A stretch of DNA of 64,000 nt. Origin: an uncultured Gemmatimonadales bacterium (lineage in GTDB: Bacteria > Gemmatimonadota > Gemmatimonadetes > Gemmatimonadales > Gemmatimonadaceae). Below the pieces are notes generated by a model that was given only the letters and a program-made list of their open reading frames with translations, made no database searches and had not been told where the DNA came from. The stretch's first letter is position 1. Every line of letters begins with the position of its first letter. Of the stretch, positions 40,433-59,432 are shown piece by piece. Position numbers and translations under genes: made by a program. The stretch is taken from assembly GCA_963706505.1 (NCBI GenBank), contig CAVPLX010000003.1, positions 31,569 through 95,568 of the forward strand, written 5' to 3'.

Positions 40433-40441
40433 CTACCCGAG

Positions 40442-40540: not shown

Positions 40541-40569
40541 AGTATACCCCGGGCCAACCGGCCCTACAA
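40541..40569 (-). promoter_or_regulatory. sigma70-like promoter for tRNA-Gly (TTGTAG-17 nt-TATACT)
   Basis: -35 at 40564-40569 and -10 at 40541-40546 (minus strand). The -10 ends 26 nt upstream of the mature tRNA 5' end. Confidence 0.5.
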
Positions 40570-40595
40570 GCGCCGCCAACAGCCGAAAACCCTGC

Positions 40596-42421
40596 CTAAC
40601 CGCCGCTTACCGCCCCCACGCCGAGCGCATGCACGGCGTACCACACACTGTACGCGAGAAGACCCGACAACGACGCATCGCCACCGTTCCCGATCGCCGC
40701 GCCAGCCGCATCGAGCGTCTCAGCGGCAACACCGTTGTCCAGCGGCGCCTCCCGCAGCCACTCCAGCGCCGAGGATGCGTCCGGACCCACGAGCCGGGCG
40801 CACCACTGTACCAGCGACAGGGTCTCACGATTCGCCGCCGACGCCTTGACGGTCCGCCGGTACACGCTCTCCTGCCGGTCCAGCGTCTCGTACAGCGGCA
40901 ACCAGAGCACCGATGCAACCGGATCATCGTGCCGGTCCACGCTGCCGCGAAGATCGGCGGCCGCCGCCAGCACGGACTTTCCGTCCGCATCCGTCGTGAA
41001 ATGCCGCAGGATCGCGGCCCGCACCGCACTCGGATCCTGCACTTCCTTCGCCGTCTCGGCGTCCAGCGTCCGCCTGAACACATCGAGGGCCAGCGCCGCG
41101 ACGGCGTTGCCATGTAAGGTGTATGGATACGGAACCGGCGCGCCCGATGGATAGACCTCGCTTCCGTACAGCGGAATCTCCGGGTGCCGCCGCGCCGCGA
41201 GGTCGTCGGCGCTCGCGTAGAGCGTGTCGGCGAGCACCGGCTCCTCCACGATCTGGTCGTCGCCGGTCTCACGGATGTAGCGCTCCGTCGCCCACGCGAA
41301 CGCCGCCACGCCCTCCAGCGAAAAGCCCGGCTCGAACAGGGCCCCGTCCATGTAGTGGATACCACTTCCCGGCGCCGCGCCATGGACCTCGCACGCGCGA
41401 AGGATGAGCTCCCGTGCGAGCCCCGCATCGGCGAGTTGCACCGCGGGTACCGTCCACGTGAGTGCATCCCAGTCACGCACGGTGACTCCGCGGCCATTCC
41501 AGGGCGCGCGCGTGCGGACCAGATAGAACCGCGCATCATCGACGGCCCGGCCCACGGCGTAGAAATACGCGAACAGGAGATTGCGATTCACGACGCGGTC
41601 GAGCGCGGCGTTGCCCGTGGACTGCTCCAGCGACCGCAATGCCTCGACGGTCGACGCGAGCAGGGGCCGCCACCCGCGCCGCCGCATCGCCTGCACGGTC
41701 GCCGCGGCACCGTCCCGCTCTGGCGCCGCCGCGACATAGAACGCGGCCTCGAATGTCGCGCCCGCCGCGACGTCGCCGGCGCACCGGAGCGCGAACTGCG
41801 GAGCCGGGCCATCGGTGTCGCACTCCACGACCGGCACGCCATCGGCACCCACGGCGAGCGCGGCCGGCCCGGCACCGCCGATCCATCCAGCAGCACCGTG
41901 TCGCCCGCCCCCGCCGCCACGCGATGCGCGTCGGCAAACGCGCTCGGCGTCCGCACACGCTGCTGCCGGTGGCCCAGGGTCCCATGCACGGAAAGCTCCA
42001 CCCGTGCCGCTGCACGCGTCTGATTCGCGATGCTGAGCACGTAGATCACGCCCGGCACATCGGCATCGCGGCCTGCCGGCGCGAAAATCGTCCCTCGCAC
42101 CGCGAACATGCCGTCACGCACGGTCGTCGAGAACGACGGCACCCACTCCACACTCTGGTCCCACGCGAGCGGCTCACTGCCCACCGCGAACGGCTCGCCA
42201 TCGATGCGCACCGCGGGACGCAGGAGCGCCGGGCCGCCCCCGGCGATGAACTCCGGGCCGCCAGCAAACTCGATCGCCGCCCGCGCCCCCCGATGCAACA
42301 TGCCAAGGGCGTGGATCGAACCGTCCGCCGGGTGGATACAGGGCACCGCGAGCCAATGATTGCCGGTTAATCGCCACGCCACTGCGGGGATCGGGAGGAC
42401 CGGGCCGGGGTACTGTGTCAC
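40596..42421 (-). pseudogene. conserved hypothetical two-domain protein (beta-rich N-domain + helical, glycoside-hydrolase-like C-domain?), one frame change
   Basis: ORF 41588..42421 (MTQYPGPVLPIPAVAWRL.. to ..GDTVLLDGSA) continues as GPAALAVGADGVPVVECDTDG.. in ORF 40596..41852. No confident family assignment. Confidence 0.55.
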
Positions 42422-42626
42422 GCGTTCGCCTGTGCCCCGGCGCCCGAGGTCATGCGTCGCGTTTGGTGTTGTGTTAGCATTGTCGCGGAAGATCGCTTCC
42501 CACGATTTGTTTATCTACTCCGCTCCCCTCCCCTCGCCCGCGCCGCCACGTCCTCGCGCGCGCCGCCGCGGACGCCGGCCCGGGATCTTCCGTATCCCTC
42601 CGCGCGTCACCGCAGCCGCACGCATC

Positions 42627-44369
42627 GTGTGTGCGGTGTGCCTGGCGGTGTGTCTGGCGGTGCCCCCGGCACTGCTGTCCGCCGCGCTTGCGCTCGCCGC
42701 CAGCGCAGCGCCCGCCAGGGCGCAGGCCGTGGACGCGGTCGCGGATGAGGCGCTGACGCTGCCGCCAGGCGTTGTGCGACTGAGTGTCAGCGAGTCGGAT
42801 ACCCGATACAGCGACCGCTACGGCACCGGCGGTCTCCAGCCCCTCGGCTACGGCCTCTCCGTCGATTCTCTCGGCGTCAGCCAGTTGCCGATCCTCGCAC
42901 CCCTGCAGTCCTCCCTCCGGGCCCTGACGCAAGACCCGGCGTTCAACCTCACGCTCGGCACCATGCAGGTACAGTCGAGCGTCCGCGTGCAGATGACGCC
43001 GATCGGACTGGACATCGGGGTCGCCCGCCGCCTCACGCTCCGCGCCATCGTGCCGATCGTGCAGACGCACAACGAGATCTTTTTCAACCCCAACCCGGGC
43101 GGCAAGACCGGGAACGTCGGCTTCAACCCCGCACTCGCGTTCAAGAACGCCCTCGCGATCGACACGGGACTCTACGGGCAGTTCACCAATGCGAGTGCCA
43201 GCCTCGCGGCCGCCGTGGCGGCGTGCCGCGCCAATCCCGGCCATGCGGCGTACTGCCCCGCGCTGAATGCGCAGAGCGCGACCGCGAACGCCCTCATCTC
43301 ACAATCGTCCAGCTACGCCTCGCAGCTCGCAAATGTGTACGGCGGCCACGGTCACAAGACTGGCATCATCGTTCCCGTGGACAGCAGTGCGCCATGGACC
43401 GCGATCACTCGGCGATTCCATTCGCTCTCCGCCGCGTTCGCGCACTTCGACTCGTTGACCGGCGGACCAGGCATTGGGACCCAGGGCCCGGTCGGCGCTC
43501 CTCCGATCGGCCTCGGTGACGCCCAGGCCTTGCTCACGTCCAGCGCCCTTGGCCTCGGCTTCGACTCGCTGCATTCGGTGGATTACGTCCACGTCGGCGA
43601 TATCGAGCTGGGCGCCACGGTGCTGCTGCTCGACTCCTTTCACGGCAGCGACAGCGCACGATTCCATCCGTCAGGCTTCAACTATCGCCTCTCTGCGTCC
43701 GGCTTTTATCGCCTGGGCACCGGCGGGACCTTGCCGGCCGACGCGCTCGTCGGCGCCGCGACCGGCACGGGCGCCAGTGCCATCGAAATTCACGCGGCGA
43801 GCGACCTGCTCTTCGGCCGCCATTTCTGGACGTCGGTCATGGTCAAGGGAACCATGCCTATCGCCGACCACATCTCGGCGCGCATCCCGCTCGGACTCGG
43901 CGAGGCCTACACACCGGACTTCGCGGACCAGTTCGTGGGGCGGACCCTGGGACGGACGATCGTCGTCGAAGTGGCTCCCCGCTACACGTTCAACGATTAT
44001 TTCGGTCTCTCGACGGACTACCAGTTCATCCAGCACAGCGCGGATCAGTACTCGGGCGTCGTCAAACTCGATTCCGCGGTCACCGGATTCGGTCCGGTTA
44101 CGCTCGACGCCAACACCCTCGGCGCAGGCACCGGGTCCACCGAACAGCGCTGGGGCGTCGGGCTGACATTCTCGACGCTCGCGGGCTCCGCACGCCATCC
44201 GTCGCGGATTCCCTTCGAGCTGACCTACCTCCACTACCAGACCATCACCGGCTCCGCCGGCATCGGGGGCTTTCTGCCGAAGCTCGCGACCGACATGGTT
44301 CAGATCCGCCTCTATACGCGCATTTTCGGAAGTGGCGGGGCCTTCGGCAAGCGGCCAAAGCCGCAATAG
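42627..44369 (+). CDS. secreted hypothetical protein, possibly outer-membrane beta-barrel (start uncertain)
   Basis: ORF 42360..44369 has no ATG in its first ~90 codons. GTG 42627 gives the signal peptide (M)CAVCLAVCLAVPPALLSAALALAASAAPARAQA. The body is Gly/Ser/Thr/aromatic-rich and the C-terminus ..VQIRLYTRIF is followed by a short tail. Confidence 0.5.
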   Translation: MCAVCLAVCLAVPPALLSAALALAASAAPARAQAVDAVADEALTLPPGVVRLSVSESDTRYSDRYGTGGLQPLGYGLSVDSLGVSQLPILAPLQSSLRALTQDPAFNLTLGTMQVQSSVRVQMTPIGLDIGVARRLTLRAIVPIVQTHNEIFFNPNPGGKTGNVGFNPALAFKNALAIDTGLYGQFTNASASLAAAVAACRANPGHAAYCPALNAQSATANALISQSSSYASQLANVYGGHGHKTGIIVPVDSSAPWTAITRRFHSLSAAFAHFDSLTGGPGIGTQGPVGAPPIGLGDAQALLTSSALGLGFDSLHSVDYVHVGDIELGATVLLLDSFHGSDSARFHPSGFNYRLSASGFYRLGTGGTLPADALVGAATGTGASAIEIHAASDLLFGRHFWTSVMVKGTMPIADHISARIPLGLGEAYTPDFADQFVGRTLGRTIVVEVAPRYTFNDYFGLSTDYQFIQHSADQYSGVVKLDSAVTGFGPVTLDANTLGAGTGSTEQRWGVGLTFSTLAGSARHPSRIPFELTYLHYQTITGSAGIGGFLPKLATDMVQIRLYTRIFGSGGAFGKRPKPQ

Positions 44370-44414
44370 CCAAGCACGCAGTAGCGGAGGTGGCGTAGTG
44401 CTGACGGCGCGCCG

Positions 44415-46140
44415 CTATCTGCTCCGCTGCCGCGGCTCCTCTGTCCGCTCCGCCTTCTCCTTCCTGCCTTCTCCACGAAGGAGCTCGCGGGCATGCGCCC
44501 TCGCGACTTCGCGGTCCGGGTCGCCCAGCATCCGGGCGACTTCGAGCACGCGGGCCTCGCCGTCGAGCACCCGCACGTCGGCAGTCGTGACGCCGCCGCG
44601 CGCGCCCTTGCTGACGACGATGTGGTGGTGCGCGCGCGCCGCGATCTGCGGCAGGTGCGTGATCGCGAACACCTGATGGTGCGCGGCGACGCGCCGCAGC
44701 GTCTCACCGACCTGCAGCCCGACCCGACCGCCGATGCCGGCGTCCACTTCGTCGAACACGAGCGTCGGCACGCGATCGAGCCGCGCGAGGATCGTCTTGA
44801 GCGCGAGCATGACGCGCGACAGCTCGCCGCCCGACGCGACGCGCGCCAAGCGGCCGCGCCTCGTGGCCGACGTTGAGCGCGACGCGAAACTCCACATCCT
44901 CGGCGCCCGCGGCGCCGGTCTCGTCGCGGCGGTCCAGCGCGACCGCGAGGTGCCCGTCGGGCATGCCGAGCTCGGGCAGCACTTCGTCGACGGCGCGCGC
45001 CAGCCGCTCCGCCGCGCTCACGCCGCGCCACCGTGAGCGCCGGCCGCCTCGTCGAGCTTCGCGCGAGCCTCGCGCCTCGCGCGCTCCGAGCTGGCGGAGG
45101 TCGAGCCCCGCCGAGTCGACGAGATCGAGCTCGCGCGCGACTGCGCGCCCGGTCTCGATGACGTCGTCGAGCGTCGGCCCGTATTTCTTGGTCGAGCCGG
45201 AAGAGCAGGTCGCGCCGCCGCTGGACCTCCTCGAGCCGCGCCGGATCGAGATCGACCGCGCTGGCGTACTCCTCGCAGCTCGCGCGCGAGCTCCTCGAGC
45301 GCGTAGTAGGCGGTGTCGTACAGCTCCTGCAGGCGGGCGAGCGACGGATCGATGCGCTGAATCGCCGCCAGCGCGCGCGTGCACCGCCGCGAGTTGCTCG
45401 AGCACCGCGGCCTCCTCCTCGCCATCGAGCGCGGCCGCGATCGCTCGGGCCAGCGTCGCGCAGCTCCTCGGCGTGCTCGAGCCGGCGCGCTTCGTCCTCG
45501 AGGCGCACATCCTCGCCGTGCTTCGAGCCTCGCGCGTCTCGATCTCGCTCGCCGACGTGCCGCAGATAGTCCGCGCGCCGCTCCGCCTCGGCACGGCGCG
45601 GCGGTGAGGTCGGCGATCTCGCGGCGGATGCTGGCCAGCGTCGTCGTACGCGCTCGCGCACGCGCGGCGGCCGACTCGGTCGCGCCGGCGAACGCATCGA
45701 GGATGCGGCGCTGCGCCTCGGCGTCGAGCAGCGTCTGCGCCTCGTGCTGTCCGTGCAGGTTCACGAGCAGGCGGCCGACCTCGGCGAGGACGGCCGCGGT
45801 GACGGTCGTGCCGTTGATCCACGCGCGCGCGCGGCCGGTCGGCCGACCTCGCGCTTGAGCACGACCAGTCGCGTCGTCGACGTCGATGCCGCGCTCGTCG
45901 AGCAGGGCGATGACCTCCGGCCGTCCCGCTGACGTCGAACACGCCTTCGACCGTCGCCCGGTCGGCGCCGGTGCGGATGAGGTCGGCGCTCGCGCGCTCG
46001 CCGAGCAGCAGGCCGAGCGCGCCGACGATGATCGACTTGCCCGCGCCCGTCTCGCCCGAGAGCACGTTGAAGCCGGGCGCGAGCGGCAGCGTGAGCGATT
46101 CGATGATCGCGAAGTTCCTGATGCGCAGCTCGGTCAGCAT
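44415..46140 (-). pseudogene. recN: DNA repair protein RecN, at least a dozen frame changes in this sequence
   Basis: [38 protein letters not shown] at 46140. NLHGQHEAQTLLD, RRADYLRHV, KKYGPTLDDVIETG and VEFRVALNVGHEARPL appear in alternating frames. The clean 3' end reads ASGGELSRVMLALK..LVFDEVDAGIGG..FAITHLPQIAA (44415-44897). Total length is 1726 nt, normal for RecN. Confidence 0.85.
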
Positions 46141-47050
46141 CCGGTGTCGGCTCGTCGCGCTCGCGGCAAGCCACCCCAGCCGAGCTTCTGCCGCAGCGTC
46201 GCGAAGAAGCGTCGCGCCCGGAAAGCGCACGATGAGCACCGGCCGTCCGGCGCGCCGCACCGTCGAGCGTCTCGCCGGCGGCGAACGTCGTGCCGACCTG
46301 GCCGTCGACCGTCACCAGAAGCTCCTCGGGCCCATCTTCCGCCTGCACCGTCACCTCGCCGTCGGCGGCAGCACCAGCGGCCGGATCGCCAGCGTGTGCG
46401 GCGAGACCGGCGTGAGGAGGATCGTCTCGAGCGTCGGCACGACGACCGGTCCGCCCGCCGACAGGCTGTACGCCGTCGATCCGGTCGGCGTCGAGATCAC
46501 GACGCCGTCCGCCGCGTAGGTCGCCACCGCCTCGCCGTTCGACTCGACACGCGCAGCGCGCACGACGCGCGCGAAGCCGCCCTTGTGCAGCACGACGTCG
46601 TTGAGCGCGCGCCACCGGCGCCGCTCGGTCGCCGTCGCGGTCGAGCACGCGCGCCTCGAGCGCCATGCGCGCCTCGGCGACGATAGTCGCCGCCGCGCGA
46701 ACCGCCGCAGCGCCTCCTCCAGCTCGTGACCGCCGGCAGCAGGTGAGGAAGCCGAGCCGCCCGAGATTGACGCCGAGGATCGGCACCTGGCGCCCGGCGA
46801 GGAGGCGCGCGCCGCGCAGCAGCGTGCCGTCGCCGCCGAGCGTGAGCAAGCGCATCGATGCTCGGCGCCGGCATCTTCGAGCCGGCATCGTCCGATGTCG
46901 GCCGCGCGACGTCGAACCGCAGCTCGTCGCTCGAACACGAGCAGCAGTCCGAGCTCGAGCGCGGGGCGCCAGAGCGGTCGTCAGCGTCCGCAGCACGCCG
47001 GCGACAGCCCGCCGGATAGCCGAGGTGCCGACGACGCCGAGTCGGATCAC
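46134..47050 (-). pseudogene. nadK: NAD kinase, multiple frame changes
   Basis: The GTG at 47050 overlaps the dxs stop (GTGA). [37 protein letters not shown] and [24 protein letters not shown] occur in different frames. The inferred end [12 protein letters not shown] stops at 46134-46136, inside recN codons 2-3. Confidence 0.8.
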
Positions 47051-48959
47051 CCGGCGATCGCCTCGCTCTCGTGCAGCGCGCGCACGCGCTCGGCGATGCC
47101 GGCCGCGTCGAGCCCGCACGTGCGCGAGCTGCCGGACGCGCGACGCCGCGTCGATGATGCGATCGGGCACGCCGTGCACGGCGACGCGCACCGCCGGATC
47201 GCATCGCGCCGATGACGGGCGACATGAACGCGCCGAAGCCGTTGACCACCGTGCCCTCTTCGACGACGAGGACATGCCGGTGGTCGGCGAGGATCGCGGC
47301 GAGCGTGACCTCGTCGTACGGCTTGAGGTAGCGGCAGTTGACGACCGTGACGTCGAGCCCCTCGGCCGCCAGCGTCGTCGGCGGCGGCGAGCGCCGGGAG
47401 CACCATCGTGCCGACGGCGAGGATCGCGACCTCGGCGCCGCTGGCGCAGCACTTCCCACGTCGCCGTAACGGGACGGCCGCGATCGTCGCTGATCGGCGG
47501 CGCGACGTCGGGCGCGACGTCGCGCGGATAGCGCAGGCAGAACGGACCGGCCGTGTGCTCGACGCCGGCGCGCAGGAGCGCCGAGCATCTCGGTCGCAGT
47601 CCTTCGGCGCGGTGACCGTCATGCCGGGCACGGCGAGCATGTACGCGATGTCGTAGAGCCCCATGTGCGTCTCGCCGTCCTCGCCGACGAGGCCCGCGCG
47701 GTCCATGCAGAACACGACCGGCAGCGACTGGATCGCGACGTCGTGGATGATGTTGTCGTAGGCGCGCTGCAGGAACGTCGAGTAGATCGCGCACGACCGG
47801 GCGGACGCCGCGCGTCGCCAGGCCGGCGGCGAAGGTCACCGCGTGTCCCTCGGCGATGCCGACGTCGAAGAAGCGCGTCGGGATGTGCCTTGGCGAACGC
47901 GCCCGTGCCCGTGCCGCTCGGCATCGCCGCGGTGATCGCGACGAGCGTCGGTGCGCTCGGCGCCGAGCTCGGCGAGTCCCGTGCCGAAGACCGCGGTGTA
48001 GGCCGGGTTGCCGGTCGACGCCGCTGCGCTGCTTGCCGGTGGCCGGATCGTGACCGGGCGGAAGCGCGTGCCACTTCTCGCGCGTGCTCGCCCGCCGGGA
48101 AGCCCTTCCCCTTCTGCGTGATGACGTGCACGAGCCGCGGGCCCTTCATGTCGCGCACCGCGCGCGAACGTGTCGAGCAGCGCATCGATGTCGTGGCCGT
48201 CGATCGGGCCGAAGTAGCGGAAGCCGAGCTCCTCGAACAGCACGCCCGGCGTGAGGAACGTCTTGACGCTCTCCTCCCACTTCCGCACGAGCGTGCCGAC
48301 GCCCGACAGCGGCCCGGCGCGTCGTCGACGAGCTCGCCGATCGCCGAGCGCACGCGGTTGTAGAGCGGGTTGCGCTGAATCGACGTCAGATACTTGCGAC
48401 ATCGCGCCGACGTTCGGCGCGATCGACATCTCGTTGTCGTTCAGCACGACGACGATGTCGCGGTCCGATGGCCCGGCGTTGTTGAGTCCCTCGTACGCCA
48501 GGCCGGACGTGAGCGCGCCATCGCCGAGGATGGCGACGACCTTGAAGTCCTCGTCGCTTGAGGTCGCGCGCGGCGGCCATGCCGAGCGCCGCGGAGATCG
48601 CGGTGGCGGCGTGGCCGGCGCCGAACGCGTCGTACTCGCTCTCGCTGCGCTTGAGGAAGCCCGGAGACGCCGTCCTCCTGGCGCAGCGTCTCGAAGCCGG
48701 TCGTTGCGCCCGGTGAGCAGCTTGTGCGGGATAGCCCTGATGTCCGACGTCCCAGACGAGCTGGTCGCGCGGCGTGTCGAAGACGTAGTGCAGCGCGATC
48801 GTCAGCTCGACGACGCCGAGGCCGGCGCCGATGTGGCCGCCGGTGCGCGAGCAGACGTCGATGAGCCGCGCACGCATGTCCGCGGCCAGCGTCGCGGAGC
48901 TCGTCGCGCGTCAGCGACTTGAGATCGGCGGGCGACTGGACGCGATCGAGAAGAGACAT
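47047..48959 (-). pseudogene. dxs: 1-deoxy-D-xylulose-5-phosphate synthase, more than ten frame changes
   Basis: MSLLDRVQSPADLKSL at 48959. [96 protein letters not shown] and [18 protein letters not shown] appear in alternating frames. The end ..[10 protein letters not shown] is at 47047. Confidence 0.85.
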
Positions 48960-49035
48960 ACGCGAAGGGTGGCAGTGTGAATGCCGAAAGCTAGTCGTTT
49001 GCCGGGCTCGGCCTCATGGCCGCGGAATCCGGCGC

Positions 49036-49948
49036 TCAGCTACTGCGACTCACAGCGAAGCGGGCCAGATGCTCCAGCGCGGGCGTCAGCAGGCCCGCGC
49101 CCTCGAGGGCGCGCGCACCCCTCGTCCACCAGCGCGCTCGCGCGCGCCCGCGCCCCCTCGACACCGAGCAGCGCCGGATAGGTGCTCTTGCGCAGCGCGA
49201 GATCGCGTCCGGCGGTCTTGCCGAGCTGGTCGGTGGTCGCCGTGACATCGAGCACGTCGTCGGCGATCTGGAAGGCCAGGCCGATCGCGTCGCCGTACGC
49301 GGCCGAGCGCCGTCGAGCACCGCGTCGTCCGCGCCCGCGGCGATCCCGCCGAGCCGCACCGACGCCGCGATCAGCGCGCCCGTCTTCGCGCGGTGGATGC
49401 GCTCCAGCTCCGCGAGCGACGAGCGGCCGCCCCTCGCCCTCGAGATCGAGCAGCTGGCCGCCGATCATGCCGCCGGCGCCGGACGCGCGCATCAGCTCTC
49501 GAACGAATGGCGCCGCGCCGCGTCCGCCGGCAACCCGAGCGCGCGCCGCCGTCGCGCGCGCAGCGCGCCGCGAGCGGCACCATCGCCACGCCGGCCGCCG
49601 TCGCGGTCGCGACGCCGTAGCACGCGATGCACCGTCGGCCGTCCGCGGCGCATGTCGTCGTCGTCCATGCACGGCAGATCGTCGTGGACGAGCGAGTACG
49701 CGTGCACGACCTCGACGGCCGCGGCGAGCGCCGACGCGTCGCCCGCACCGCCCGCCGCCCGGTAGGCCGCCAGCAGGAGAACGGCCGCGCAGCCGCTTGC
49801 CCTCCCCCAGCAGCGTGTATCGCATCGCTTCACCCGCGAGAGCCGGCGTCGCGGCGAGGTAGCGCGCGCAGAACCTGCCGAGAGCCGCCTGAACGGCCGC
49901 CCGGTCCGCGGCGAAGGTGGCGTCGATCGCTTCCACGCCCGCCGGCAC
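49036..49948 (-). pseudogene. ispA: polyprenyl (farnesyl/geranyl) diphosphate synthase, multiple frame changes
   Basis: The GTG at 49948 overlaps the xseB stop (TAGTG). First DDxxD motif: [27 protein letters not shown]. Second: GLAFQIADDVLDVT..LGKTAGRDL..KSTYPALLG. The end ..LEHLARFAVSRSS* is also present. The pieces lie in all three frames. Confidence 0.8.
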
Positions 49949-50214
49949 TACGGGCGGCTCCCGCGCCCGCTCCTGCTCCCGCCTTCGACGGAGCCCTCGC
50001 CGCGATCGCGCATCGGCCGCAGCTCGAAGACGCCTTCGGCCTGCTCCACGAGGAGCGCCACCTGGGCCTCGACTCGTACCAGCTCCGCGGACGCGCGCCG
50101 GAGTCGCGCCACGCCCTCCTCGAACAGCGCCAGCGCGCGATCGAGCGCCACGCCATCGCCGCCCAGCTCGGCCGCGATCTCCTCGAGACGCGCCACGTCT
50201 TCCTCGAACGTCAT
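49948..50214 (-). CDS. xseB: exodeoxyribonuclease VII small subunit
   Basis: MTFEEDVARLEEIAAELGGDGVALDRALALFEEGVARLRRASAELVRVEAQV.. is a typical XseB helical hairpin. This is the only uninterrupted gene inside the frameshift-dense block. Confidence 0.75.
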   Translation of the reverse strand: MTFEEDVARLEEIAAELGGDGVALDRALALFEEGVARLRRASAELVRVEAQVALLVEQAEGVFELRPMRDRGEGSVEGGSRSGRGSRP

Positions 50215-51467
50215 GCGGCGCCCCCGGGGCGTCCGGCGCCACGGATGTCGCGATCGCTCCAACTCTGCCGTCACGGAGCGTGAGATCGAATGGCATGCCG
50301 GCGGCGAAGTCGGCAGTCGCCGTCAGGGCGTGCCCGTCCGCGCCGCGGGCGACCGCGTAGCCGCGCGCGAGGGTGGCGAGGGGGCTCAGCGCGTCCAGCC
50401 GGCCGGCAGCCGCGTCGAGCCGCGAGCGGCGTCGCTCCGTGGCTCGCGTCGCACCGCGAAGGGTCATCTCGCGAACCCGGCCGAGCCGTGACGCCGCCGT
50501 CTGGACGCAGCGCGCCGCCGCACTGGCCAGTTGGACGGCCGCGAGCCGCAACCGCTGCTCCTCGTCCGCCCAGAGCGGGACAGCCGCTTCGGCCGCCGCC
50601 GACGGCGTCGGCGCGCGGACGATCGGCGACGAGGTCACAGATCGTGATATCGACCTCGTGGCCGACGGCCGAGATGGTGGGTACGAGGCAGGCGGCGACC
50701 GCGCGCGCGACCCGCTCGTCGTTGAACGCCCAGAGGTCTTCGCGGCCCCGCCACCGCGTCCGACGATGACGACGTCCGCCTCGCCCCACCGGGCGACGCC
50801 GTCGAGCGCCGAGCACAGCTCCTCGGGCGCTCCGTCGCCCTGCACTTCGCAGGCGACCACCACGATGCGCAGCGACGGGAGCGCCGGCGACGGGCCACCG
50901 CGATGATGTCGTGCAGCGCCGCGCCGTCGGGGCTCGTGACGACCGCGAGGCAGCGCGGGAACCGCGGCAGCGGCCGCTTGCGCTCCGGGGCGAGCAGGCC
51001 GTCGCGACGCAGACGTTCGCGCGTGCGTTCGAGCGCCTTGCGCCAGCAGCCCGTCGCCGTCGGCTCGATCGCGGTCACCGCGAACTGCATCTCGCCGCGC
51101 GCGGCGTACACGGTCAGCTGGCCGTAGACCACCACCTGCATGCCGTCTTCGGCGGCGCCGGAATTCGCCGCTGATCGTCGCGACCACACGACGCAGCGCA
51201 GCTGCGCGGCCCGGTCGCGCAGGCAGAAGTACCAGTGGCCGTTGCGATGCGCCTTGAAGTCGCTGATCTCGCCGCGCACCCAGAGCGGCAGGAACGCGCC
51301 CTCGATGATATGCCTCGCCGACTGCGCGAGCGTCGAGACGGCGACCGCGGTCTCGGTGCTGCCGCCGGGAAGTCGCTCCGCGTCCGAACAAAGACAGCCG
51401 CGGCCGCAGCGCCGGCTGCGCCGGTGATCGGGTCGTCCGACGCTCGGACGCCGCGCCCGCGCGTCAT
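50211..51467 (-). pseudogene. xseA: exodeoxyribonuclease VII large subunit, multiple frame changes
   Basis: The ATG at 51467 overlaps the folD stop (ATGA). [68 protein letters not shown] and [13 protein letters not shown] occur in different frames. The inferred TGA 50211-50213 overlaps the xseB ATG. Confidence 0.8.
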
Positions 51468-52341
51468 CGCAGCTCTGCGCGGCGCGCACGGTGTTCTTGC
51501 AGCAGCATGGCGATCGTCATCGGCCCGACGCCGCCCGGCACCGGCGTGATCAGGCGACGCCACTTCGCGCGCACTCGCGAAGTCCACGTCGCCCACGAGA
51601 CGTATGCCGCTTTTCGCGCGACGCGTCATCCACGCGATTGATGCCGACGTCGATCACGACCGCACCCGGCTTCACCATGTCGCCGGTCACGATCTGCGGC
51701 CGGCCCGCCGCGACGATGAGGATGTCGGCGCGCCGCGTGTGCGCCGCGAGATCGCGCGGTCGCGGCTGTGGCAGACCGTGACCGTCGCGTTGGCGCCGGG
51801 ACGGTCCTGCATCATCAGCGCCGCCATCGGCTTGCCGACGATGTTGCTGCGGCCGACGATCACGCACTCGGCCCCTTGGTCTCGACGCCGGATCGCACGA
51901 GCAGCTCCTGCACGCCCGCCGGCGTGCACGGCGCGAAGCCGTCGCGCTCGCCGATCAGCAGCTTGCCGACGTTCACCGGATGAAATCCGTCCACGTCCTT
52001 CTCGGGACGGATGCGGCGAATCACGACCTCGGCGGATCGATGTGCTTCGGCAGCGGCATCTGGACGAGAATGCCGTGGATCGCCGGATCGGCGTTGAGCC
52101 GATCCACGTGCGCGAGCAGCTCGGCCTCGCTGGCGGTCGGCCGGCAGGCGGATCGTGACGCTGTGCATCCCCGCCTCTTCGCGACGCCTTGCCCTTTGCC
52201 GCGCACGTAGACCGCGCTCGCCGGATCGTCGCCGACGAGCACGACCGCGAGCCCGGGCCGCACCCCGCGCGCGACGAGACTGGCCGCGACTTCGCGCGCC
52301 ACTCCCGCCGCGAACGGCTCCGCGCGATCGCGTTGCGCCAT
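51464..52341 (-). pseudogene. folD: bifunctional methylenetetrahydrofolate dehydrogenase/cyclohydrolase, multiple frame changes
   Basis: [77 protein letters not shown] and (P)MTIAMLLQ..* are scattered over three frames. Confidence 0.8.
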
Positions 52342-52349
52342 CGATCAGC

Positions 52350-53943
52350 TCAGCGGGCAAAGTCCACCGCCCGCGTCTCGCGGATCAGCACGACCTTGAT
52401 CTGACCCGGATACTGCAGCTCCGCCTCGATGCGGCGCGCGATCTCCTCGGAGAGCGACGCCATGCGCGCATCGTCGACGTCGTCCGGGTGTCACGATCAC
52501 GCGGATCTCGCGCCCCGCCTGAATCGCGAACACCTTCTCGACGCCCGGTAGCTCGCCGCGATCCGCTCGAGCCCCTCGAGGCGCTTCACGTACGTCTCGA
52601 ACGCCTCGCGGCGCGCGCCGGGACGCGAGCCCGAGATCGCGTCGGCGGCCTGCACCAGCACCGAGACCTCGCTCTCGTGCGGCACGTCGTCGTGGTGCGC
52701 GGCGATGCAGTTCACGACGAGCGGGTTCTCGCCGTACCGGGTCGCCACCTCGACGCCGAGCTGGACGTGTGTCCCTTCGTGCTCGTGCGTCAGCACCTTG
52801 CCGACGTCGTGCAGCAGCGCGCCCGCGCTTGGCCATCGCGACGTCGAGCCCCAGCTCGGCGGCCATGATCCCGGCGAGCCAGGCGACTTCCTTCGAGTGC
52901 TGCAGGATGTTCTGGCCATAGCTCGTGCGCCACCGCATGCGGCCGATCAGCTTCACCAGCTCGGCGATGCAGGCCGTGCACGCCGGTCTCGTACGCCGCC
53001 TGCTCGCCGGTCTCGACGATCGGCGACGTCGACTTCCTTCCGCGACTTGTTGACGACTTCCTCGATGCGGCCCGGATGGATGCGGCCGTCGGCGACGAGC
53101 TTCTCGAGCGCCAGCCGCGCGATCTCGCGCCGGACCGGGTCGAAGCAGGAGACGACGACGGTGTCGGGCGTGTCGTCGATGATGACGTCGACACCGGTTG
53201 CCAGCTCGAAGGCGCGAATGTTTCGCCCCTCGCGACCGATGATGCGGCCCTTCATCTCGTCGTTCGGGCAGCGCCACCGCGGATACCGTGGTCTCGGCGG
53301 TGTGCTCGGCCGCGATACGCTGGATCGCGAGCGCGACGATCTTCTTCGCCTCCCGCTCCGCCGTACGGCGCGCGGTCTCGCGAATCTCGCGCACCCGGTT
53401 GGCCGCGTCGGCCTGCGCCTCCTCTTCCATGCGGCTGATCAGCTCGGCCTTCGCGTCCCCCGCGGAGAGCCCGGCGAGCTGCTCCAGCCGCCGCTGCTCT
53501 TCGGCGTGCATCCGGCCGGCTTCCTGCTCCCGCTCGCTCACTTGCTTCTCGCGCCGGCTGATTTCTCCCGACTGGCGAGTGGTCTCCTTCTCCCGCTGGT
53601 CGATGATCTCGAATTTGCGGTCGAGGATCGTGTCGCGCTCCTTGAGGCGCTTCTCCTCGCGCTCGACCTCGGACCGGCGCTCGCGCACTTCTTCGTCCCA
53701 GGATTCCCGGAGCTTCATGAGCTCCTCCTTCCCCGCGAGCACCCCGGACTTCCGCAGAGTGTCGGCCTCGCGTTCGGCTTCGGCGACGACGCGCCGGCTC
53801 AACTCTTCGGCGGACTGTCCGGCGGCCGTCTGGCGTTCATGTTCCGCGGCCTGGCCAGCTCGCCGGCCCATGATGAACGCGACCACCCCGGCAATGAGGC
53901 CGCACAGCACACAGGCCGCGGCAAGGGCGACCACTGACGACAT
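52350..53943 (-). pseudogene. rny: ribonuclease Y; 5' third intact, 3' two-thirds with multiple frame changes
   Basis: The TM anchor [21 protein letters not shown] and coiled coil are intact to ~53270. The KH domain ([30 protein letters not shown]), HD domain ([17 protein letters not shown].., AAHHDD) and C-terminus ([33 protein letters not shown], stop 52350-52352) lie in alternating frames. Confidence 0.85.
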
Positions 53944-54004
53944 ACGATCTATACTCCAGCGCGGCACTGGCCGCGGCGTTGGTCGTGAATCGGGCGTTCG
54001 ATAC

Positions 54005-54319
54005 CTACACTACCGTGACATCGCCTCGCTTTGCGGGCGGCAGCCAGCGGCGGACTTCACTGCCCAGCGTCCGCATGGCTCCGGTGAGCTCCTCCGAAGC
54101 CTGCTGGGCCTGGAACAACTGATCCGTAATCTGAAGCGCGGCCAGGATCGCCGCCTTGCGTGTCTCGACCGCGCCCCCTGCACTCATTACCCGCCGGATC
54201 GCCGCATCGACATACTCCGCGACCGCACGCGTATGCTCCGGCGTCGAGTCGCTCCGGATCGAGTACTCCTCACCGACTATCGTGACGCGAACGACCTGCT
54301 TGGACCCCTTGTCGGTCAT
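54005..54319 (-). CDS. zapA: cell division protein ZapA
   Basis: 104 aa. [35 protein letters not shown].. is a typical ZapA fold signature. It overlaps the upstream gene by 4 nt. Confidence 0.75.
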
Positions 54320-54630
54320 CGCTCACCACCCGCGCTACCCGCGACGGCCGCCTGCTCCTGCTGCTGGCGGAGGAACCGGACCCGGTCGAGCATCGATTGC
54401 GCTTGGCCCGCCGCTGCTTCCAGACGCCCCCGGAGCACGGCATTCTCGGCCTCCAGCGCCGCCACCCGCGAGGCGTCCGCTACCGGACCCCCACGCACGT
54501 CGAACGCACGTAACTGTGTCTCGGCCTGAAGCGCCCGGCGGCGAAAGCTAGCGAGTTCATCTCCGAGGTGACGGATGAGAACTTCCAGCTCCCGGAACGC
54601 GATGCGATCATGCCGTTCGTTGTCGGACAC
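54316..54630 (-). CDS. hypothetical coiled-coil protein (ZapB-like?)
   Basis: GTG 54630 (or TTG 54633) follows GGAGA. The heptad-rich sequence is FRELEVLIRHLGDELASFRRRALQAETQLRAF..ALEAENAVLRGRLEAAAGQAQSMLDRVRFLRQQQ. It overlaps the pheT 3' end by ~23 nt. Confidence 0.5.
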   Translation of the reverse strand: MSDNERHDRIAFRELEVLIRHLGDELASFRRRALQAETQLRAFDVRGGPVADASRVAALEAENAVLRGRLEAAAGQAQSMLDRVRFLRQQQEQAAVAGSAGGER

Positions 54631-57085
54631 CAAGATGAGTCTCCAAGGCGCGCAATAGCTTATCTCGTCGAGCCTCAACCTCTTTCTCGCGAAGAGTGCG
54701 CTCCGGATGCCTGAACGTCAACCGCCAGGTAAGGCTGCGGTGTCCCGCGGGCACGTTGTCGCCGTGGAATTGGCTCAGCAGGTCGATCCGCTCGAGGATC
54801 GGCTCCTTCGCGCCATGCAACACGGTCTCGACTGCACCGGCTGAGACCGCCGCTGGCACCAGCAGCGTGATGTCGATCCGAACGGCCGGAAACGACGGCG
54901 GCCGCCGGTACCGAGGCACCGGATCCCGCGCCACACCGTCGGACGCCGCCGCGGGTGCATGGCGCCCAGGAGGGGCGACGTCGGTCACGTCCATCGCCTC
55001 CATCAGGATCTCCACGCCATAGGCCGTGGCAGCCCACGGGGGCGCATCGAGCGTCACCACGGCGGCCCGCCCAGCGTCGATCTCGCCAGCGCGAACTCGC
55101 CACAGCGTCCCCGCACCACCACCCGGCTCCATCATGATGGCCGCACCGGGATGGGCGGCGCCCGCCACCGCCTCGGCCAGCGCCCTGACATCCCATTCGT
55201 CCCACGCCGGCGGTGACGGCTCCGTGAAATGCGGCGGCCGCCGGGCCCCCATGCATAGCATCCCGACCCGAACGTCCTCGGCGGGCCGTCCTGGGCTCCC
55301 GGCCTGTGTGCGGAACACGGTGCCGATCTCGAACAGGCGCAGATCGCCCTCCATCCGCGCGAGGTTGAACTCCGCACGCCGGGCGAGCGATGTGAGGAGA
55401 TCGGAGCGCAGGTACGACTCGTTGCCCGCGAGCGGGTTTGTCACCCGGACCGATGTACCGGCGGGATCGGGGGCCGACACGAACGGCATCGGACGCACTT
55501 CAATGAAGCCCATACCCACGAGCAACTCACGGAGACGCGCACTGCGCGCGACCAGCGGATCATCCGGCACGGTCCCGATCCGGTACGCACGCAGCTCCGT
55601 CGGGAAGCTTCCGTAACCCCGGAGGCGCGCCACCTCCTCGACCAGGTCGATCTCCGCGGTCACGTCCGTCCGCCAGAGCGGCGCCACGACATCGAGCGCA
55701 CGCTCCGCCGGGCCCACGCCAAATCCGACGCTCGCGAGGAGCATGGCGCATTCGGCGGCCGGCACCGCCACACCCAGCACCTGCGCGACGCGCTGCGTCC
55801 GGAGGCGGATTCGTGACCGGCGTTCCGGAGCCTCCAGTGCAGGTCCGATGAGCACGGGCGCAGCGGCGCACTGTCCGCCAGCGACGGCAGCCATCAGCCG
55901 TACGACGATGGGATACACCTCCGCCGGCGATGCCGGAGGGACCAGCCGCTCGAAGCGGAAGGACGCCTCGGTCGACACGCCGAGCGCCCGCCGGGCGCCA
56001 CGGACCCGGCGCGGATCGAACGAGGCGATCTCGAGGAAGATGTCCGTGGTCTCGCCGGAGACCTCGCTTCCCTTCCCGCCGATCACTCCCGCGACTCCCT
56101 GCGCGTGCTGCGCATCGGCGATCACCAGCATGTTCGCCTCGAGGACCCGGTCCACGCCGTCCAGCGTCGTCAGGCGCTCGCCCGGATGCGCCCGTCGCAC
56201 GTGAATCGCCGCGTTGGCGCCGCCGATCCGCGCCAGATCGAACGCGTGCATCGGCTGGCCGTAGCCATGGAGCATGTAGTTGGTGACGTCCACGACATTG
56301 CTGACCGAACGCACACCCACCGCTGCCAATCGCGCCACGAGCCACGGAGGGCTCGCTCCGACGCGGACGCCGCGTATCACCACGCCGAGATACGCGGGGC
56401 ACTCGGTACTGTCATCGACGGTCACCCGGACGCCGTCGGTGGTCCCGGTACGCTCGGCGCGAACCGGTAGGGGCACGGCGGCCACCATGCCGCTCCCCAC
56501 GCCATCCGGAATCGCGGGCTCTCGCAGCGGCTTTCCGGTCGCCGCGGCGATTTCCCTGGCAACACCCTGGTGCGACAGCAGGTCTGGGCGGTTCGGCAGG
56601 ACATCGATGACGAGACGCGTATCGCCGATCGGCATCGCGTCCAGTAGCGGCGTGCCGGGAGCGGCTGTGGTGGCCAGGGCGAGAATCCCGTCGTGTTCCT
56701 CGCCGAGCCCCAACTCACGGGCGGAGCACAGCATGCCGTTCGAGACCTGACCACGAATCTTCCGCCGCTCGATCTTCAGGCCGTTCGGCATGGTCGTGCC
56801 GGCCGGCGCGAATGGATAGGCCGTGCCGACGGTGACATTGGGCGCGCCACACACGACGTCGAGCAACTCTGGGCCGCCCGCGTCCACGCGCGTCACCCAC
56901 AGGTGATCGCTGTCCGGGTGCCGGGCCGCGTCGATCACGCGGCCCACCACCAGCGCCGCGAGGTCGGCCCGCACGGGCTCGATCGCGTCGACCGTGGCAG
57001 CCCGTTCCGTGATCAGGTCGCGAAGCTCACGCGGCGAGAGGCCGCTGTCGACGAATGCCGACAGCCACTCGGCGGACGCGTTCAT
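54608..57085 (-). CDS. pheT: phenylalanine--tRNA ligase beta subunit
   Basis: 825 aa. MNASAEWLSAFVDSGLSPRELRDLIT.., tRNA-binding domain, B3/4, B5 and FDX-ACB domains in order. The ATG overlaps the pheS stop (ATGA). Confidence 0.95.
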   Translation of the reverse strand: MNASAEWLSAFVDSGLSPRELRDLITERAATVDAIEPVRADLAALVVGRVIDAARHPDSDHLWVTRVDAGGPELLDVVCGAPNVTVGTAYPFAPAGTTMPNGLKIERRKIRGQVSNGMLCSARELGLGEEHDGILALATTAAPGTPLLDAMPIGDTRLVIDVLPNRPDLLSHQGVAREIAAATGKPLREPAIPDGVGSGMVAAVPLPVRAERTGTTDGVRVTVDDSTECPAYLGVVIRGVRVGASPPWLVARLAAVGVRSVSNVVDVTNYMLHGYGQPMHAFDLARIGGANAAIHVRRAHPGERLTTLDGVDRVLEANMLVIADAQHAQGVAGVIGGKGSEVSGETTDIFLEIASFDPRRVRGARRALGVSTEASFRFERLVPPASPAEVYPIVVRLMAAVAGGQCAAAPVLIGPALEAPERRSRIRLRTQRVAQVLGVAVPAAECAMLLASVGFGVGPAERALDVVAPLWRTDVTAEIDLVEEVARLRGYGSFPTELRAYRIGTVPDDPLVARSARLRELLVGMGFIEVRPMPFVSAPDPAGTSVRVTNPLAGNESYLRSDLLTSLARRAEFNLARMEGDLRLFEIGTVFRTQAGSPGRPAEDVRVGMLCMGARRPPHFTEPSPPAWDEWDVRALAEAVAGAAHPGAAIMMEPGGGAGTLWRVRAGEIDAGRAAVVTLDAPPWAATAYGVEILMEAMDVTDVAPPGRHAPAAASDGVARDPVPRYRRPPSFPAVRIDITLLVPAAVSAGAVETVLHGAKEPILERIDLLSQFHGDNVPAGHRSLTWRLTFRHPERTLREKEVEARRDKLLRALETHLGVRQRTA

Positions 57086-58218: not shown

Positions 58219-58583
58219 CTAGGCGGCGGCCAGCGCGTCCCGCGCCCGGTCGGCGAGCAGCGTAAACGCCTGTGGATCGCGCACGGCGAGATCCGCCAGC
58301 AGTTTCCGGTCGACGTCGATGCCGGCCTTCTTCAGGCCGTTCATCAGCACGCTGTACGTCATCGCGTGCTGGTGGGCGGCCGCGTTGATGCGCGTGATCC
58401 AGAGGCGCCGGAAATCGCGCTTCTTGTTCTTGCGATCGCGGTAGGCATAGCGCCAGCCGCGCTCGACAGTCTCCTTGGCGGCTTTCCACAGCTTGCGACC
58501 GGCCGCCGTACGCACCACGGGCGGCCTTCATGATCTGCTTCTTGCGCTTCAGGCGCGCGACGTTCGATCTTGACGCGTGGCAT
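58219..58583 (-). pseudogene. rplT: 50S ribosomal protein L20, two frame changes near the 5' end
   Basis: MPRVK (frame 1, ATG 58583), [24 protein letters not shown] (frame 3) and [40 protein letters not shown].. (ORF 58219..58518). Confidence 0.85.
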
Positions 58584-58592
58584 TGGTCGCTC

Positions 58593-58790
58593 CTACGCCT
58601 GGATCAGGCGCTTGATGTTCCGGGCTTCGCCAGGCGTCTTGATCGATCGTCGGACGCCGGAGATTCCGCTTCCGCTTCGCGGACTTCTTGGTGAGGATGT
58701 GGCTCTTGAAGGCCTTCATGCGGCGCACCTTGCCGCTCGCGGTGATGGAAAACCGCTTCTTCGCCCCTTGTGGGTCTTCATCTTCGGCAT
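58593..58790 (-). pseudogene. rpmI: 50S ribosomal protein L35, two frame changes
   Basis: ATG 58790 gives MPKMKTHKG, then [39 protein letters not shown] in the next frame, then ..NIKRLIQA* (TAG 58593-58595). Not visible in the ORF track because the pieces are short. Confidence 0.8.
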
Positions 58791-58845
58791 GCTGATATCC
58801 GTCCCGTCATGCGGCACCGGCATCTCGGCGTTCGCCGTAGTTGGT

Positions 58846-59432
58846 TCATTTCCGAGGCGGCCGGTAGGCCGCACCCGCACACATTGCGCTGCGTGATCCC
58901 GCTCGGCCCGCCCGAACTTCGGGGGTGAGGATCATGATCATCGACTTGCCTTCCAGCTTCGTCGGGCTTTCGATCTTCGCCACATCCGCCAGCGTCGTTG
59001 CGACCCGGTCGACCACTTCACGCCCCAGCTCCGGGTGCGCGATCTGCCGGCCGCGAAACATCATCGTGACTTTGACCTTGTTGCCATCCTGCAGGAATTC
59101 ACGCGCGTGGCGGGTCTTCGTCTCGAAGTCGTGGTCCTCGATCCCCGGCCGGTACTTCACTTCCTTCAGGTGAATCACGTGCTGCTTCTTCTTGGCCTGG
59201 CGCGCCATCTTCGCCTGCTCGAACTTGAACTTCCCGTAGTCCATGATGCGGACCACGGGAGGGCGTCGCCATCGGCGCGACTTCGACCAGATCGAGCCCC
59301 TGGTCCATCGGCCGCCGCCAACGCTGCTTCCACATCCATGATCCCCATCTGACTCCCGTCGGCAGCGATCACCCGCAAAGGACTGATGCGGATCTGCCTG
59401 TTGACGCGCACTCGCTTCGTGGTGTCCTGGAT
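58846..59432 (-). pseudogene. infC: translation initiation factor IF-3, two frame changes; probable AUC start
   Basis: ..NRQIRISPLRVIAADGSQMGIMDVEAALAAA (ORF 59175..59411), GLDLVEVAPMATP (ORF 59099..59335), and PVVRIMDYGKFKFEQAKMARQAKKKQH...KSMIMILTP (ORF 58846..59574). GGGGGAGG lies 8 nt upstream of the in-frame ATC at 59432. Confidence 0.85.

What the first reader, a model, noticed from the sequence alone, without database searches (positions are those of the whole stretch)
44898..53275. 8.4-kb block in which seven of eight housekeeping genes are shredded by a frame change every ~100-300 nt
I traced conserved peptide blocks by eye. recN changes frame at least a dozen times and dxs about 17 times. 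nadK, ispA, xseA, folD and the 3' two-thirds of rny are likewise mosaics of all three frames. Only xseB (267 nt) is uninterrupted. Three observations argue against real decay. First, each gene has a normal total length (recN 1726, nadK 917, dxs 1913, ispA 913, xseA 1257, folD 878, rny 1594 nt). Second, the peptide blocks themselves look undamaged. Third, every gene junction keeps a coupled start/stop overlap. The edges are sharp: the recN 3' 483 nt (44415-44897) and the rny 5' ~680 nt (53270-53943) are clean. dxs, ispA, folD and rny are normally indispensable, so real pseudogenisation of the array is implausible. The pattern fits a stretch with roughly 1% indels, such as unpolished, low-coverage or mis-assembled strain-chimeric sequence. 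Third codon positions here also look more G/C-saturated than in the flanks. The two longest ORFs in the track (692 and 783 aa) are artefacts of this block.
Basis: partly seen in the sequence, partly recalled or inferred. Interest (0 to 1): 0.7.

Follow-up and report, generated by a model that had tools for sequence, protein, structure and literature searches.

The report
Assembly artefact: two lineages blended
The "shredded" housekeeping genes are not decaying genes. They are an assembly error in which sequence from this bacterium and from a related one was merged base by base, often writing both variants of a site side by side, so the block should be discarded rather than interpreted.

Summary
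Frameshift-aware alignment finds 70-73 frame changes in rny, folD, xseA, ispA, dxs, nadK and recN (window 44,850-53,269, minus strand). xseB is intact. The cause is technical.

An independent Gemmatimonadales MAG contig (L081, GCA_044449365.1) is 99-100% identical to the window on both sides. Inside 44,517-53,442 it is only 79-93% identical, and there all eight of its genes are intact.

Three results argue for a blend of lineages:
- The substitutions are mostly third-codon-position and synonymous, so this is not random read noise.
- The window's version has almost no private alleles (dxs 5/1866, against 18-91 in every real lineage). No protein database entry matches it above about 88%.
- 52 of 58 window-only one-base insertions (90%, background 35%, p=1.6e-17) repeat an allele that other lineages carry at the adjacent polymorphic column. 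In 53 of 56 cases one of the two adjacent bases is L081's own allele. Only 5 of 91 insertions extend a homopolymer.

The block is therefore a site-by-site blend of the contig's own population with another Gemmatimonadaceae lineage. It is a collapsed or mis-polished consensus over a conserved operon. A smaller copy of the same problem hits infC/rpmI/rplT. Biological interest is low, but the case is useful as a quality-control warning.

The parts
44517..53442 (.). Blended block. Identity to the same-population reference L081 drops from 99-100% to 79-93%. It holds 147 gap events and has GC 2-5 points higher.
44418..46140 (-). recN, 12-14 frame changes, the last at 44,850/1. After correction it is 84% identical to L081 RecN.
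46158..47050 (-). nadK, 9-10 frame changes. The N-terminal ~250 nt are heavily gapped against L081 and lie closer to lineage L003.
47040..47060 (-). dxs stop / nadK start overlap (GGGTGATCCGACTCGGC), as in lineages L003/L004/L002. L081 has a 68-nt spacer here, so this is a structural trait of a non-A lineage.
   Evidence: L081 coordinates
47050..48959 (-). dxs, 19-21 frame changes. After correction it is 88% identical to L081 Dxs.
49039..49948 (-). ispA, 8 frame changes.
49948..50214 (-). xseB, uninterrupted, 95.5% identical to L081 XseB.
49800..50600 (.). Low-divergence island (0-4 differences per 100 nt, one indel) covering the ispA 5' end, xseB and the xseA 3' end. These parts are poorly conserved between lineages.
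50213..51436 (-). xseA, 6 frame changes, all in its conserved 5' two-thirds.
51460..52360 (-). folD, 9 frame changes.
52353..53943 (-). rny, 6 frame changes between 52,488 and 53,269. The 5' part is clean and becomes identical to L081 from about 53,450.
45761..47839 (-). 692-aa ORF running across the recN 5' end, nadK and the dxs 3' end. It is an artefact of stop-poor GC-rich sequence.
49040..51391 (-). 783-aa ORF running across ispA, xseB and xseA. It is an artefact.
58495..59306 (-). Second, smaller cluster: 2 frameshifts each in infC, rpmI and rplT. The proteins are otherwise 98-100% identical to L081.

Best explanation
The block is a consensus artefact.

The contig belongs to one Gemmatimonadales population, here called A, which is represented independently by L081. 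Over the conserved rny-folD-xseA-xseB-ispA-dxs-nadK-recN operon, sequence from at least one other, GC3-richer Gemmatimonadaceae lineage (B) was pulled into the same consensus. This could have happened as a collapsed inter-genome repeat during assembly, or through cross-recruited reads during polishing.

At sites where A and B differ, the consensus took the A base, the B base, both in tandem (a one-base insertion) or neither (a deletion). The 'both' and 'neither' outcomes give about 8 frameshifts per kb.

Where the lineages are too different to align (the xseA 3' end, xseB and the genes outside the operon), only A contributed and the sequence is clean.

Shown here: the blend and the doubled sites. 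Inferred: which pipeline step produced it, and that the data are long reads.
For: 1. **Flanks against block.** L081 is 99-100% identical to window 40,000-44,500 and 53,550-60,250, but 79-93% identical in between, with 147 gap events. L081 has all eight genes intact with the expected Pfam domains.
2. **L081's version is the real population-A sequence.** It is evenly 86-93% identical to L001 and 94-96% to L090 through block and flanks. Eight independent contigs from NCBI, JGI and Logan match it at 99.5-99.9% with no gaps.
3. **The substitutions are not noise.** They fall mainly on codon position 3 and are mostly synonymous. Counts by codon position are dxs 55/24/147, rny 14/7/69 and recN 29/35/121.
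4. **The window's version is not a normal lineage.**
   - Private alleles are dxs 5/1866, against 18-91 in each of 15 real lineages, and are also the lowest in folD, nadK and ispA.
   - In three-way comparisons it has 43 private sites, against 142-193 for real control lineages.
   - It is closer to nearly every other lineage than L081 or L001 are; the few exceptions are nadK comparisons.
   - No Dxs among 5.8 billion proteins, or among members of the top clusters, exceeds about 85% identity (about 88% if frameshift X residues are ignored).
   - A 36-mer from it has no match in 241 million metagenome records.
5. **Doubled polymorphic sites.**
   - 56/58 window-only one-base insertions equal an allele present in other lineages at the adjacent column, where the window carries a different base.
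   - Requiring that allele in at least 20% of lineages gives 52/58 (90%), against 35% for ordinary positions (Fisher p=1.6e-17). The adjacent column is codon position 3 in 32/52.
   - In 53/56 cases one of the two adjacent bases is L081's allele and the other is a non-A allele.
   - All 6 clean one-base deletions fall on polymorphic columns.
6. **The insertions avoid homopolymers.** 5/91 observed against 54.5% expected (p=1e-23). 60/91 create CpG against 26.4% expected, as G/C third-position alleles written in tandem would.
7. **Structural trait of a non-A lineage.** The dxs-nadK junction has the overlap architecture of L003/L004/L002, not L081's 68-nt spacer.
8. **Effect of conservation.** Within rny..recN, tiles with no 50% match to any non-A lineage have 1.6% divergence and 0 gaps. 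The rest have 11.1% divergence and 109 gaps.
9. **Background errors.** The contig also carries sporadic single frameshifts elsewhere, one of them in a G run, which fits an error-prone long-read consensus.
10. **Published behaviour.** Flye is reported to collapse similar genomes into consensus contigs (PMC8302730). Nanopore consensus indels are reported to cause frameshifts (PMC9262707).
Against: - No reads, coverage or assembly metadata are available, so neither the mixture nor the responsible pipeline step is observed directly.
- The source record could not be retrieved.
- Lineage B itself was not found in any collection, so 'B' is inferred from shared alleles.
- Codon phase of the insertions, judged from the pairwise alignment alone, was not decisive (23/38/30).
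- The 'closest to the family consensus' result at protein level used homologues chosen by similarity to the window. With a less biased set the window is high but not extreme.
- A conserved flank tile (L081 18,600-19,000, 77-80% to non-A lineages) is not blended, so conservation alone does not predict where blending happens.
- Within blended tiles there is no graded correlation with conservation (Spearman 0.17, n.s.).
Confidence: 0.88

Rival explanations
1. Clean chimera or genuine recombinant. The whole block comes from one real foreign lineage B (an A-B-A join by mis-assembly or by homologous recombination). The frameshifts are ordinary read errors because B had low coverage.
For: - The substitutions look evolutionary, being third-position and synonymous.
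- The corrected proteins are plausible, and the L001-guided alignment found one in-frame stop, in xseA.
- The dxs-nadK junction is of a non-A type.
- At third positions the window agrees with the lineage majority about as much as real lineages L009/L004/L003 do.
Against: - A real lineage about 12-14% from its nearest relative should carry private alleles. The window has 5/1866 in dxs, against 18-91 in every real lineage.
- The insertions are not random errors. 90% duplicate an allele of the adjacent polymorphic site, and 53/56 pairs include population A's own allele, so A sequence is present inside the block.
- The insertions avoid homopolymers.
- A and non-A alleles alternate site by site, not in tracts.
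- No such lineage appears in protein or metagenome collections.
Confidence: 0.07
2. Plain unpolished or low-coverage stretch of population A, with about 1% random sequencing indels and nothing else.
For: - Sporadic single frameshifts occur elsewhere in the window, one of them in a G run.
- Long-read consensus indels are a known cause of frameshifts (PMC9262707).
Against: - The block differs from population A by about 7-20% substitutions, concentrated on synonymous third positions. Random errors would not respect codon positions.
- Only 5/91 insertions extend a base run (p=1e-23).
- Insertions outnumber deletions 91:24 and sit next to polymorphic sites.
Confidence: 0.03
3. Genuine biology. This would be real mass pseudogenisation of the operon, for example after a functional copy arose elsewhere, or a recoded or programmed-frameshift locus.
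For: Nothing beyond the bare presence of the frameshifts in a deposited contig.
Against: - dxs, ispA, folD and rny are normally indispensable (established knowledge).
- Decay would relax codon-position bias, yet substitutions remain mostly synonymous third-position changes.
- Bacterial decay is deletion-biased, but here one-base insertions dominate 91:24.
- Insertions that duplicate neighbouring polymorphic alleles have no known mutational basis.
- Nine independent contigs of the same population carry intact genes at this locus with 99.5-100% identity to each other.
Confidence: 0.01

Closest known systems
Collapsed strain or haplotype consensus in long-read metagenome assemblies (strain-oblivious assemblers such as Flye; described in the Strainberry paper, PMC8302730)
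   Same: Sequences from more than one related genome are merged into a single consensus contig. The result matches no real organism, and indels then break reading frames.
   Different: The published cases concern strains at about 98-99% identity collapsed genome-wide. Here the second component is a different lineage: the block is 7-20% from A, and other lineages are about 25% from A in dxs. The merge is confined to one 8.9-kb conserved operon plus a 0.8-kb ribosomal-protein cluster. It also leaves a specific footprint, both alleles of a polymorphic site written in tandem.
Homopolymer indel errors in Nanopore or other long-read consensus sequences (PMC9262707; IDEEL-type truncated-protein diagnostics)
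   Same: They produce frameshifted, fragmented gene calls in otherwise correct genes. At least one such event is seen outside the block (41,868-41,871, a G run).
   Different: Within the block only 5 of 91 insertions extend a base run. The block also carries about 12% substitutions. The density, about 8 per kb, far exceeds the sporadic single frameshifts found in the flanking genes.
Genuine pseudogene arrays in decaying genomes (e.g. Mycobacterium leprae, recent endosymbionts; from general knowledge)
   Same: Several adjacent genes carry multiple frameshifts.
   Different: Here the genes are essential, the substitutions remain under apparent purifying selection, insertions dominate, and the same population has intact copies in independent assemblies.

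Membership tests
Multi-lineage collapsed / mis-polished consensus (assembly artefact) | Flanks match a single real population, while the block deviates from that population's independently assembled sequence. | tested here: met
   L081 is 99-100% identical in the flanks and 79-93% in 44,517-53,442. L081's version is reproduced by 8 further contigs.
Multi-lineage collapsed / mis-polished consensus (assembly artefact) | The block is a collage of alleles that exist in other lineages, with almost no private changes. | tested here: met
   Private sites are dxs 5/1866 against 18-91 in real lineages, and are also lowest in folD, nadK and ispA. The three-way private count is 43 against 142-193.
Multi-lineage collapsed / mis-polished consensus (assembly artefact) | Indels sit at sites that differ between the merged components (both alleles or neither retained). 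| tested here: met
   52/58 insertions duplicate an adjacent polymorphic allele, against 35% background (p=1.6e-17). 53/56 pairs include the A allele. 6/6 deletions fall on polymorphic columns.
Multi-lineage collapsed / mis-polished consensus (assembly artefact) | Reads over the block split into two or more haplotype groups, with excess depth, and no group supports the indels. | not testable with these tools
   No reads or coverage are available, and the source record was not retrievable.
Homopolymer-type long-read indel errors | Indels lengthen or shorten runs of the same base. | tested here: not met
   5/91 insertions extend a run, against 54.5% expected by chance.
Homopolymer-type long-read indel errors | Apart from the indels, the sequence equals the true genome. 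| tested here: not met
   The block carries 7-20% substitutions relative to the same population.
Genuine pseudogenes (gene decay) | Relaxed selection: substitutions spread evenly over codon positions. | tested here: not met
   Third-position and synonymous changes are in excess in all seven genes.
Genuine pseudogenes (gene decay) | The lesions are reproducible in independent samples of the same population. | tested here: not met
   L081 to L089 all carry intact genes. The window's variant is found nowhere else.
Genuine pseudogenes (gene decay) | Deletion-biased indel spectrum, including larger deletions. | tested here: not met
   There are 91 one-base insertions against 24 one-base deletions, and every broken gene is 4-38 nt longer than its orthologue.

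The most novel reading that the evidence does not exclude
The sequence is physically real. A Gemmatimonadales cell would then carry an rny-recN operon that is a fine-scale hybrid of two lineages, with about 70 genuine frameshifts. It would be kept alive by a second functional copy or by some unknown recoding. The tandem 'both alleles' sites would reflect an unknown mutational or repair process acting on heteroduplex DNA between divergent sequences.
Probability: 0.01. Interest if true: 0.9.

Novelty: not a real feature. Interest (0 to 1): 0.1.

Why it matters
This is not a biological discovery. It matters for data quality.

- **Misleading annotation.** A public 461-kb contig carries an 8.9-kb stretch that belongs to no organism. 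Seven essential genes would be scored as missing or pseudogenised. Chimeric ORFs of 692 and 783 aa would be called instead.
- **Database contamination.** At least some products of this contig are already in protein collections. xseB from the blended block and a truncated MBL-fold fragment from an isolated frameshift outside it were both found.
- **Phylogenetic risk.** Marker-gene phylogenies or ANI values that use recN, dxs, folD or rny from this MAG would be wrong.
- **A reusable test.** The footprint found here can be checked without reads whenever a few related genomes are available. It consists of one-base insertions that repeat the alternative allele of the neighbouring polymorphic site, avoidance of homopolymers, near-zero private alleles and locally raised GC3. 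It could be used to screen long-read MAGs for cross-lineage consensus errors in conserved operons.

Tried and rejected
- **Plain tblastn of intact orthologues.** HSPs ran straight through out-of-frame sequence because stops are rare at 73% GC. I replaced it with a frameshift-aware dynamic programme.
- **Looking up the window's own record.** Exact protein look-ups for pheT, xseB and pheS returned nothing. Only the contig length and the NCBI/ENA source are known.
- **'The block comes from a lineage already in hand.'** No fetched locus matches the block better than L081 overall. A few tiles are nearest to L003, L001 or L090.
- **'The block is the consensus of many lineages.'**
  - The protein test looked strong: 92% agreement with the majority residue against at most 87% for real sequences. 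However, the homologue set was chosen by similarity to the window.
  - With loci chosen through RecN, the window is high (0.676 at third positions) but not extreme, since L009 reaches 0.709.
  - I therefore claim only a blend of A with at least one other lineage.
- **Codon phase of insertions from the pairwise alignment alone.** The result was 23/38/30, which is indecisive.
- **Graded relation between inter-lineage conservation and blending inside the operon.** None was found (Spearman 0.17, n.s.). Only a threshold effect appears. The window-wide correlation is confounded by how far the fetched loci extend.
- **Methylation-motif or CpG-specific error.** I considered this because 60/91 insertions create CpG. 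I rejected it in favour of tandem G/C alleles, because the inserted base tracks the neighbouring polymorphism.
- **Exact 36-mer scan of JGI metagenomes for a real lineage B.** No hit. This is weak negative evidence.
Full report

Yes. The window is GC-rich (63-76%), so long ORFs occur in all frames and ORF lists say little. Two independent approaches show the frame changes.

- *Composition.* The phase of highest GC (the third codon position) flips every 100-300 nt across 44.9-53.3 kb, while it is stable in the neighbouring gene at 42.6-44.3 kb. A Viterbi segmentation of that signal gives 10-18 segments per 2 kb in 44-54 kb. Elsewhere it gives mostly 1-6.
- *Frameshift-aware alignment.* I aligned intact orthologous proteins to the minus strand with a protein-to-DNA dynamic programme that allows frameshifts.
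  - With proteins of relative L001 it finds 73 frameshifts: rny 6, folD 9, xseA 6, xseB 0, ispA 8, dxs 21, nadK 9, recN 14.
  - With proteins of L081 it finds 70.
  - The first is at 53,268/9 and the last at 44,850/1.
  - After correction the proteins are 77.5-96.6% identical to L081's. The L001-guided alignment, the only one in which in-frame stops were counted, found one, in xseA.

The 692-aa and 783-aa ORFs each span three genes and are artefacts.

**2. What organism, and what should the sequence look like?**

A scan of GTDB species representatives with the RecN C-terminus places the window in Gemmatimonadota. L001 is colinear with window 43,000-54,822 and has all eight genes intact.

Exact protein look-ups show that the window comes from a 461,399-bp NCBI/ENA contig. 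They also led to L081 (GCA_044449365.1, JBIOHW010000004.1), where rny, folD, xseA, xseB, ispA, dxs, nadK and recN are all called full length with the expected Pfam domains.

L081 is 99-100% identical to the window over 40,000-44,500 and 53,550-60,250. Between 44,517 and 53,442 identity falls to 79-93%, with 147 gap events and window GC 2-5 points higher.

L081's version is self-consistent:
- It is 86-93% identical to L001 and 94-96% to L090 throughout flanks and block.
- Eight further contigs from NCBI, JGI and Logan data sets reproduce it at 99.5-99.9% without a single gap.

So the true sequence of this population is known and intact. Only the window's version is aberrant.

**3. The block is not just population A plus indel noise.**

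The substitutions separating the window from L081 fall mainly on third codon positions and are mostly synonymous. Counts by codon position are dxs 55/24/147, rny 14/7/69 and recN 29/35/121. Random read errors would not respect codon positions.

Dxs of L081 and L001 are 96.5% identical to each other. The corrected window Dxs is only 88.2% and 86.4% identical to them. A lineage outside the L081/L001 pair has therefore contributed.

The dxs-nadK junction in the window is a start/stop overlap (GGGTGATCCGACTCGGC), as in L003, L004 and L002. L081 has a 68-nt spacer there.

**4. Nor is the block one real foreign lineage.**

- A real lineage 12-14% from its nearest relative carries its own changes. 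In dxs the window has 5 private sites in 1,866. Each of 15 real lineages has 18-91. The window is also lowest in folD, nadK and ispA.
- In three-way comparisons with L081 and L004 it has 43 private sites, against 142-193 for real control lineages. A-type and non-A-type alleles alternate site by site rather than in tracts.
- It is closer to nearly every other lineage than L081 or L001 are; the few exceptions are nadK comparisons.
- Among 5.8 billion proteins the best Dxs match is 84-85% (about 88% if the frameshift X residues are ignored). Members of the top clusters are no closer.
- A 36-mer from the window's dxs has no match in 241 million metagenome records.

**5. The indels carry the signature of merging.**

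Of 91 one-base insertions relative to L081, only 5 extend a base run, against 54.5% expected (p=1e-23). Sixty create a CpG, against 26.4% expected.

In multi-lineage alignments, 56 of 58 window-only one-base insertions equal an allele that other lineages carry at the immediately adjacent column, where the window has a different base. Requiring that allele in at least 20% of lineages gives 52/58 (90%), against 35% for ordinary positions (Fisher p=1.6e-17). The adjacent column is a third codon position in 32 of 52.

An example is in rny. The window reads T-G-C where all others have two bases, T then C in five lineages or T then G in three.

In 53 of 56 cases one of the two neighbouring bases is L081's allele and the other is a non-A allele. 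All six clean one-base deletions lie on polymorphic columns.

Each frameshift is thus a polymorphic site at which both alternatives, or neither, ended up in the consensus. This explains four things at once:
- the avoidance of homopolymers;
- the CpG excess, from G/C third-position alleles written in tandem;
- the excess of insertions;
- why every broken gene is 4-38 nt longer than its orthologue.

**6. Where it happens.**

Inside rny..recN, the five 200-nt tiles with no 50% match to any non-A lineage (the rny 5' end, the xseA 3' end and xseB, and just past the recN stop) show 1.6% divergence and no gaps. The other 41 tiles show 11.1% divergence and 109 gaps (Mann-Whitney p=0.0006). This fits cross-lineage sequence being recruited only where it can align.

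The effect is a threshold, not a gradient. One conserved flank tile is unaffected, so conservation is necessary but not sufficient.

A second, smaller cluster (58,495-59,306) puts two frameshifts each into infC, rpmI and rplT, which are again highly conserved genes.

Isolated frameshifts at 30,269, 31,501, 41,868 (a G run), 60,502, 60,703, 62,011 and 63,062 show that the contig also has a background of ordinary consensus errors.

**7. Mechanism and confidence.**

Best explanation (0.88): during assembly or polishing, sequence from population A and from at least one other Gemmatimonadaceae lineage was merged over a conserved operon into one consensus. The blend and the doubled sites are shown. 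That the data are long reads and that a particular assembler or polisher is responsible is inferred. The inference rests on the sporadic run-length error, on the reported tendency of Flye to collapse similar genomes (PMC8302730) and on known long-read frameshift problems (PMC9262707).

Rivals:
- A clean A-B-A chimera with low-coverage errors (0.07).
- Plain unpolished sequence (0.03).
- Genuine decay or recoding (0.01).

**8. Verdict.**

The interpretation (artefact, chimeric) is supported and sharpened. This is not a biological feature, so interest is low. Its value is as a warning about this contig and as a read-free diagnostic for cross-lineage consensus errors.

Noticed in passing
window 58,495-59,306 (minus strand): Second small cluster of the same kind. 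infC, rpmI and rplT each carry two frameshifts relative to L081, and the proteins are otherwise 98-100% identical. Several insertions look like tandem third-position alleles, for example AAG-TCG becoming AAGATCG.
   Followed up: partly
window 30,269; 31,501; 41,868; 60,502; 60,703; 62,011; 63,062: Isolated single frameshifts split otherwise intact genes when compared with L081, L090 and L092. The genes are a GH39 glycosidase, a molybdopterin oxidoreductase, a 595-aa hypothetical protein, an MBL-fold hydrolase, an RNase T-like exonuclease, an arginine deiminase-like protein and Rex. The one at 41,868-41,871 is a GGGG to GGG run-length change. The truncated MBL fragment (59,758-60,483) is already its own cluster representative in the protein collection.
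   Followed up: partly
L090 16,526-18,242 (ENA ERZ25039543 contig_2257, 3.29 Mb): In this related genome (94-96% to L081), recN is called as two pieces of 215 and 287 aa, while nadK, dxs, ispA and xseB are intact. recN may be disrupted or mis-assembled there too.
   Followed up: no
window 47,040-47,060 vs L081 13,144-13,213: Population A (L081) has a 68-nt spacer between dxs and nadK. L003, L004 and L002 have a stop/start overlap. This lineage-specific difference in operon architecture made the foreign contribution visible.
   Followed up: yes
window 33,426-37,032 vs L090: The two ABC-transporter ATPase/permease genes upstream of the MacB-like permease in the window have no aligned counterpart in the fetched part of L090. 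There the neighbours of the permease are MazE/PIN toxin-antitoxin genes. This looks like a gene-content difference between close relatives.
   Followed up: no
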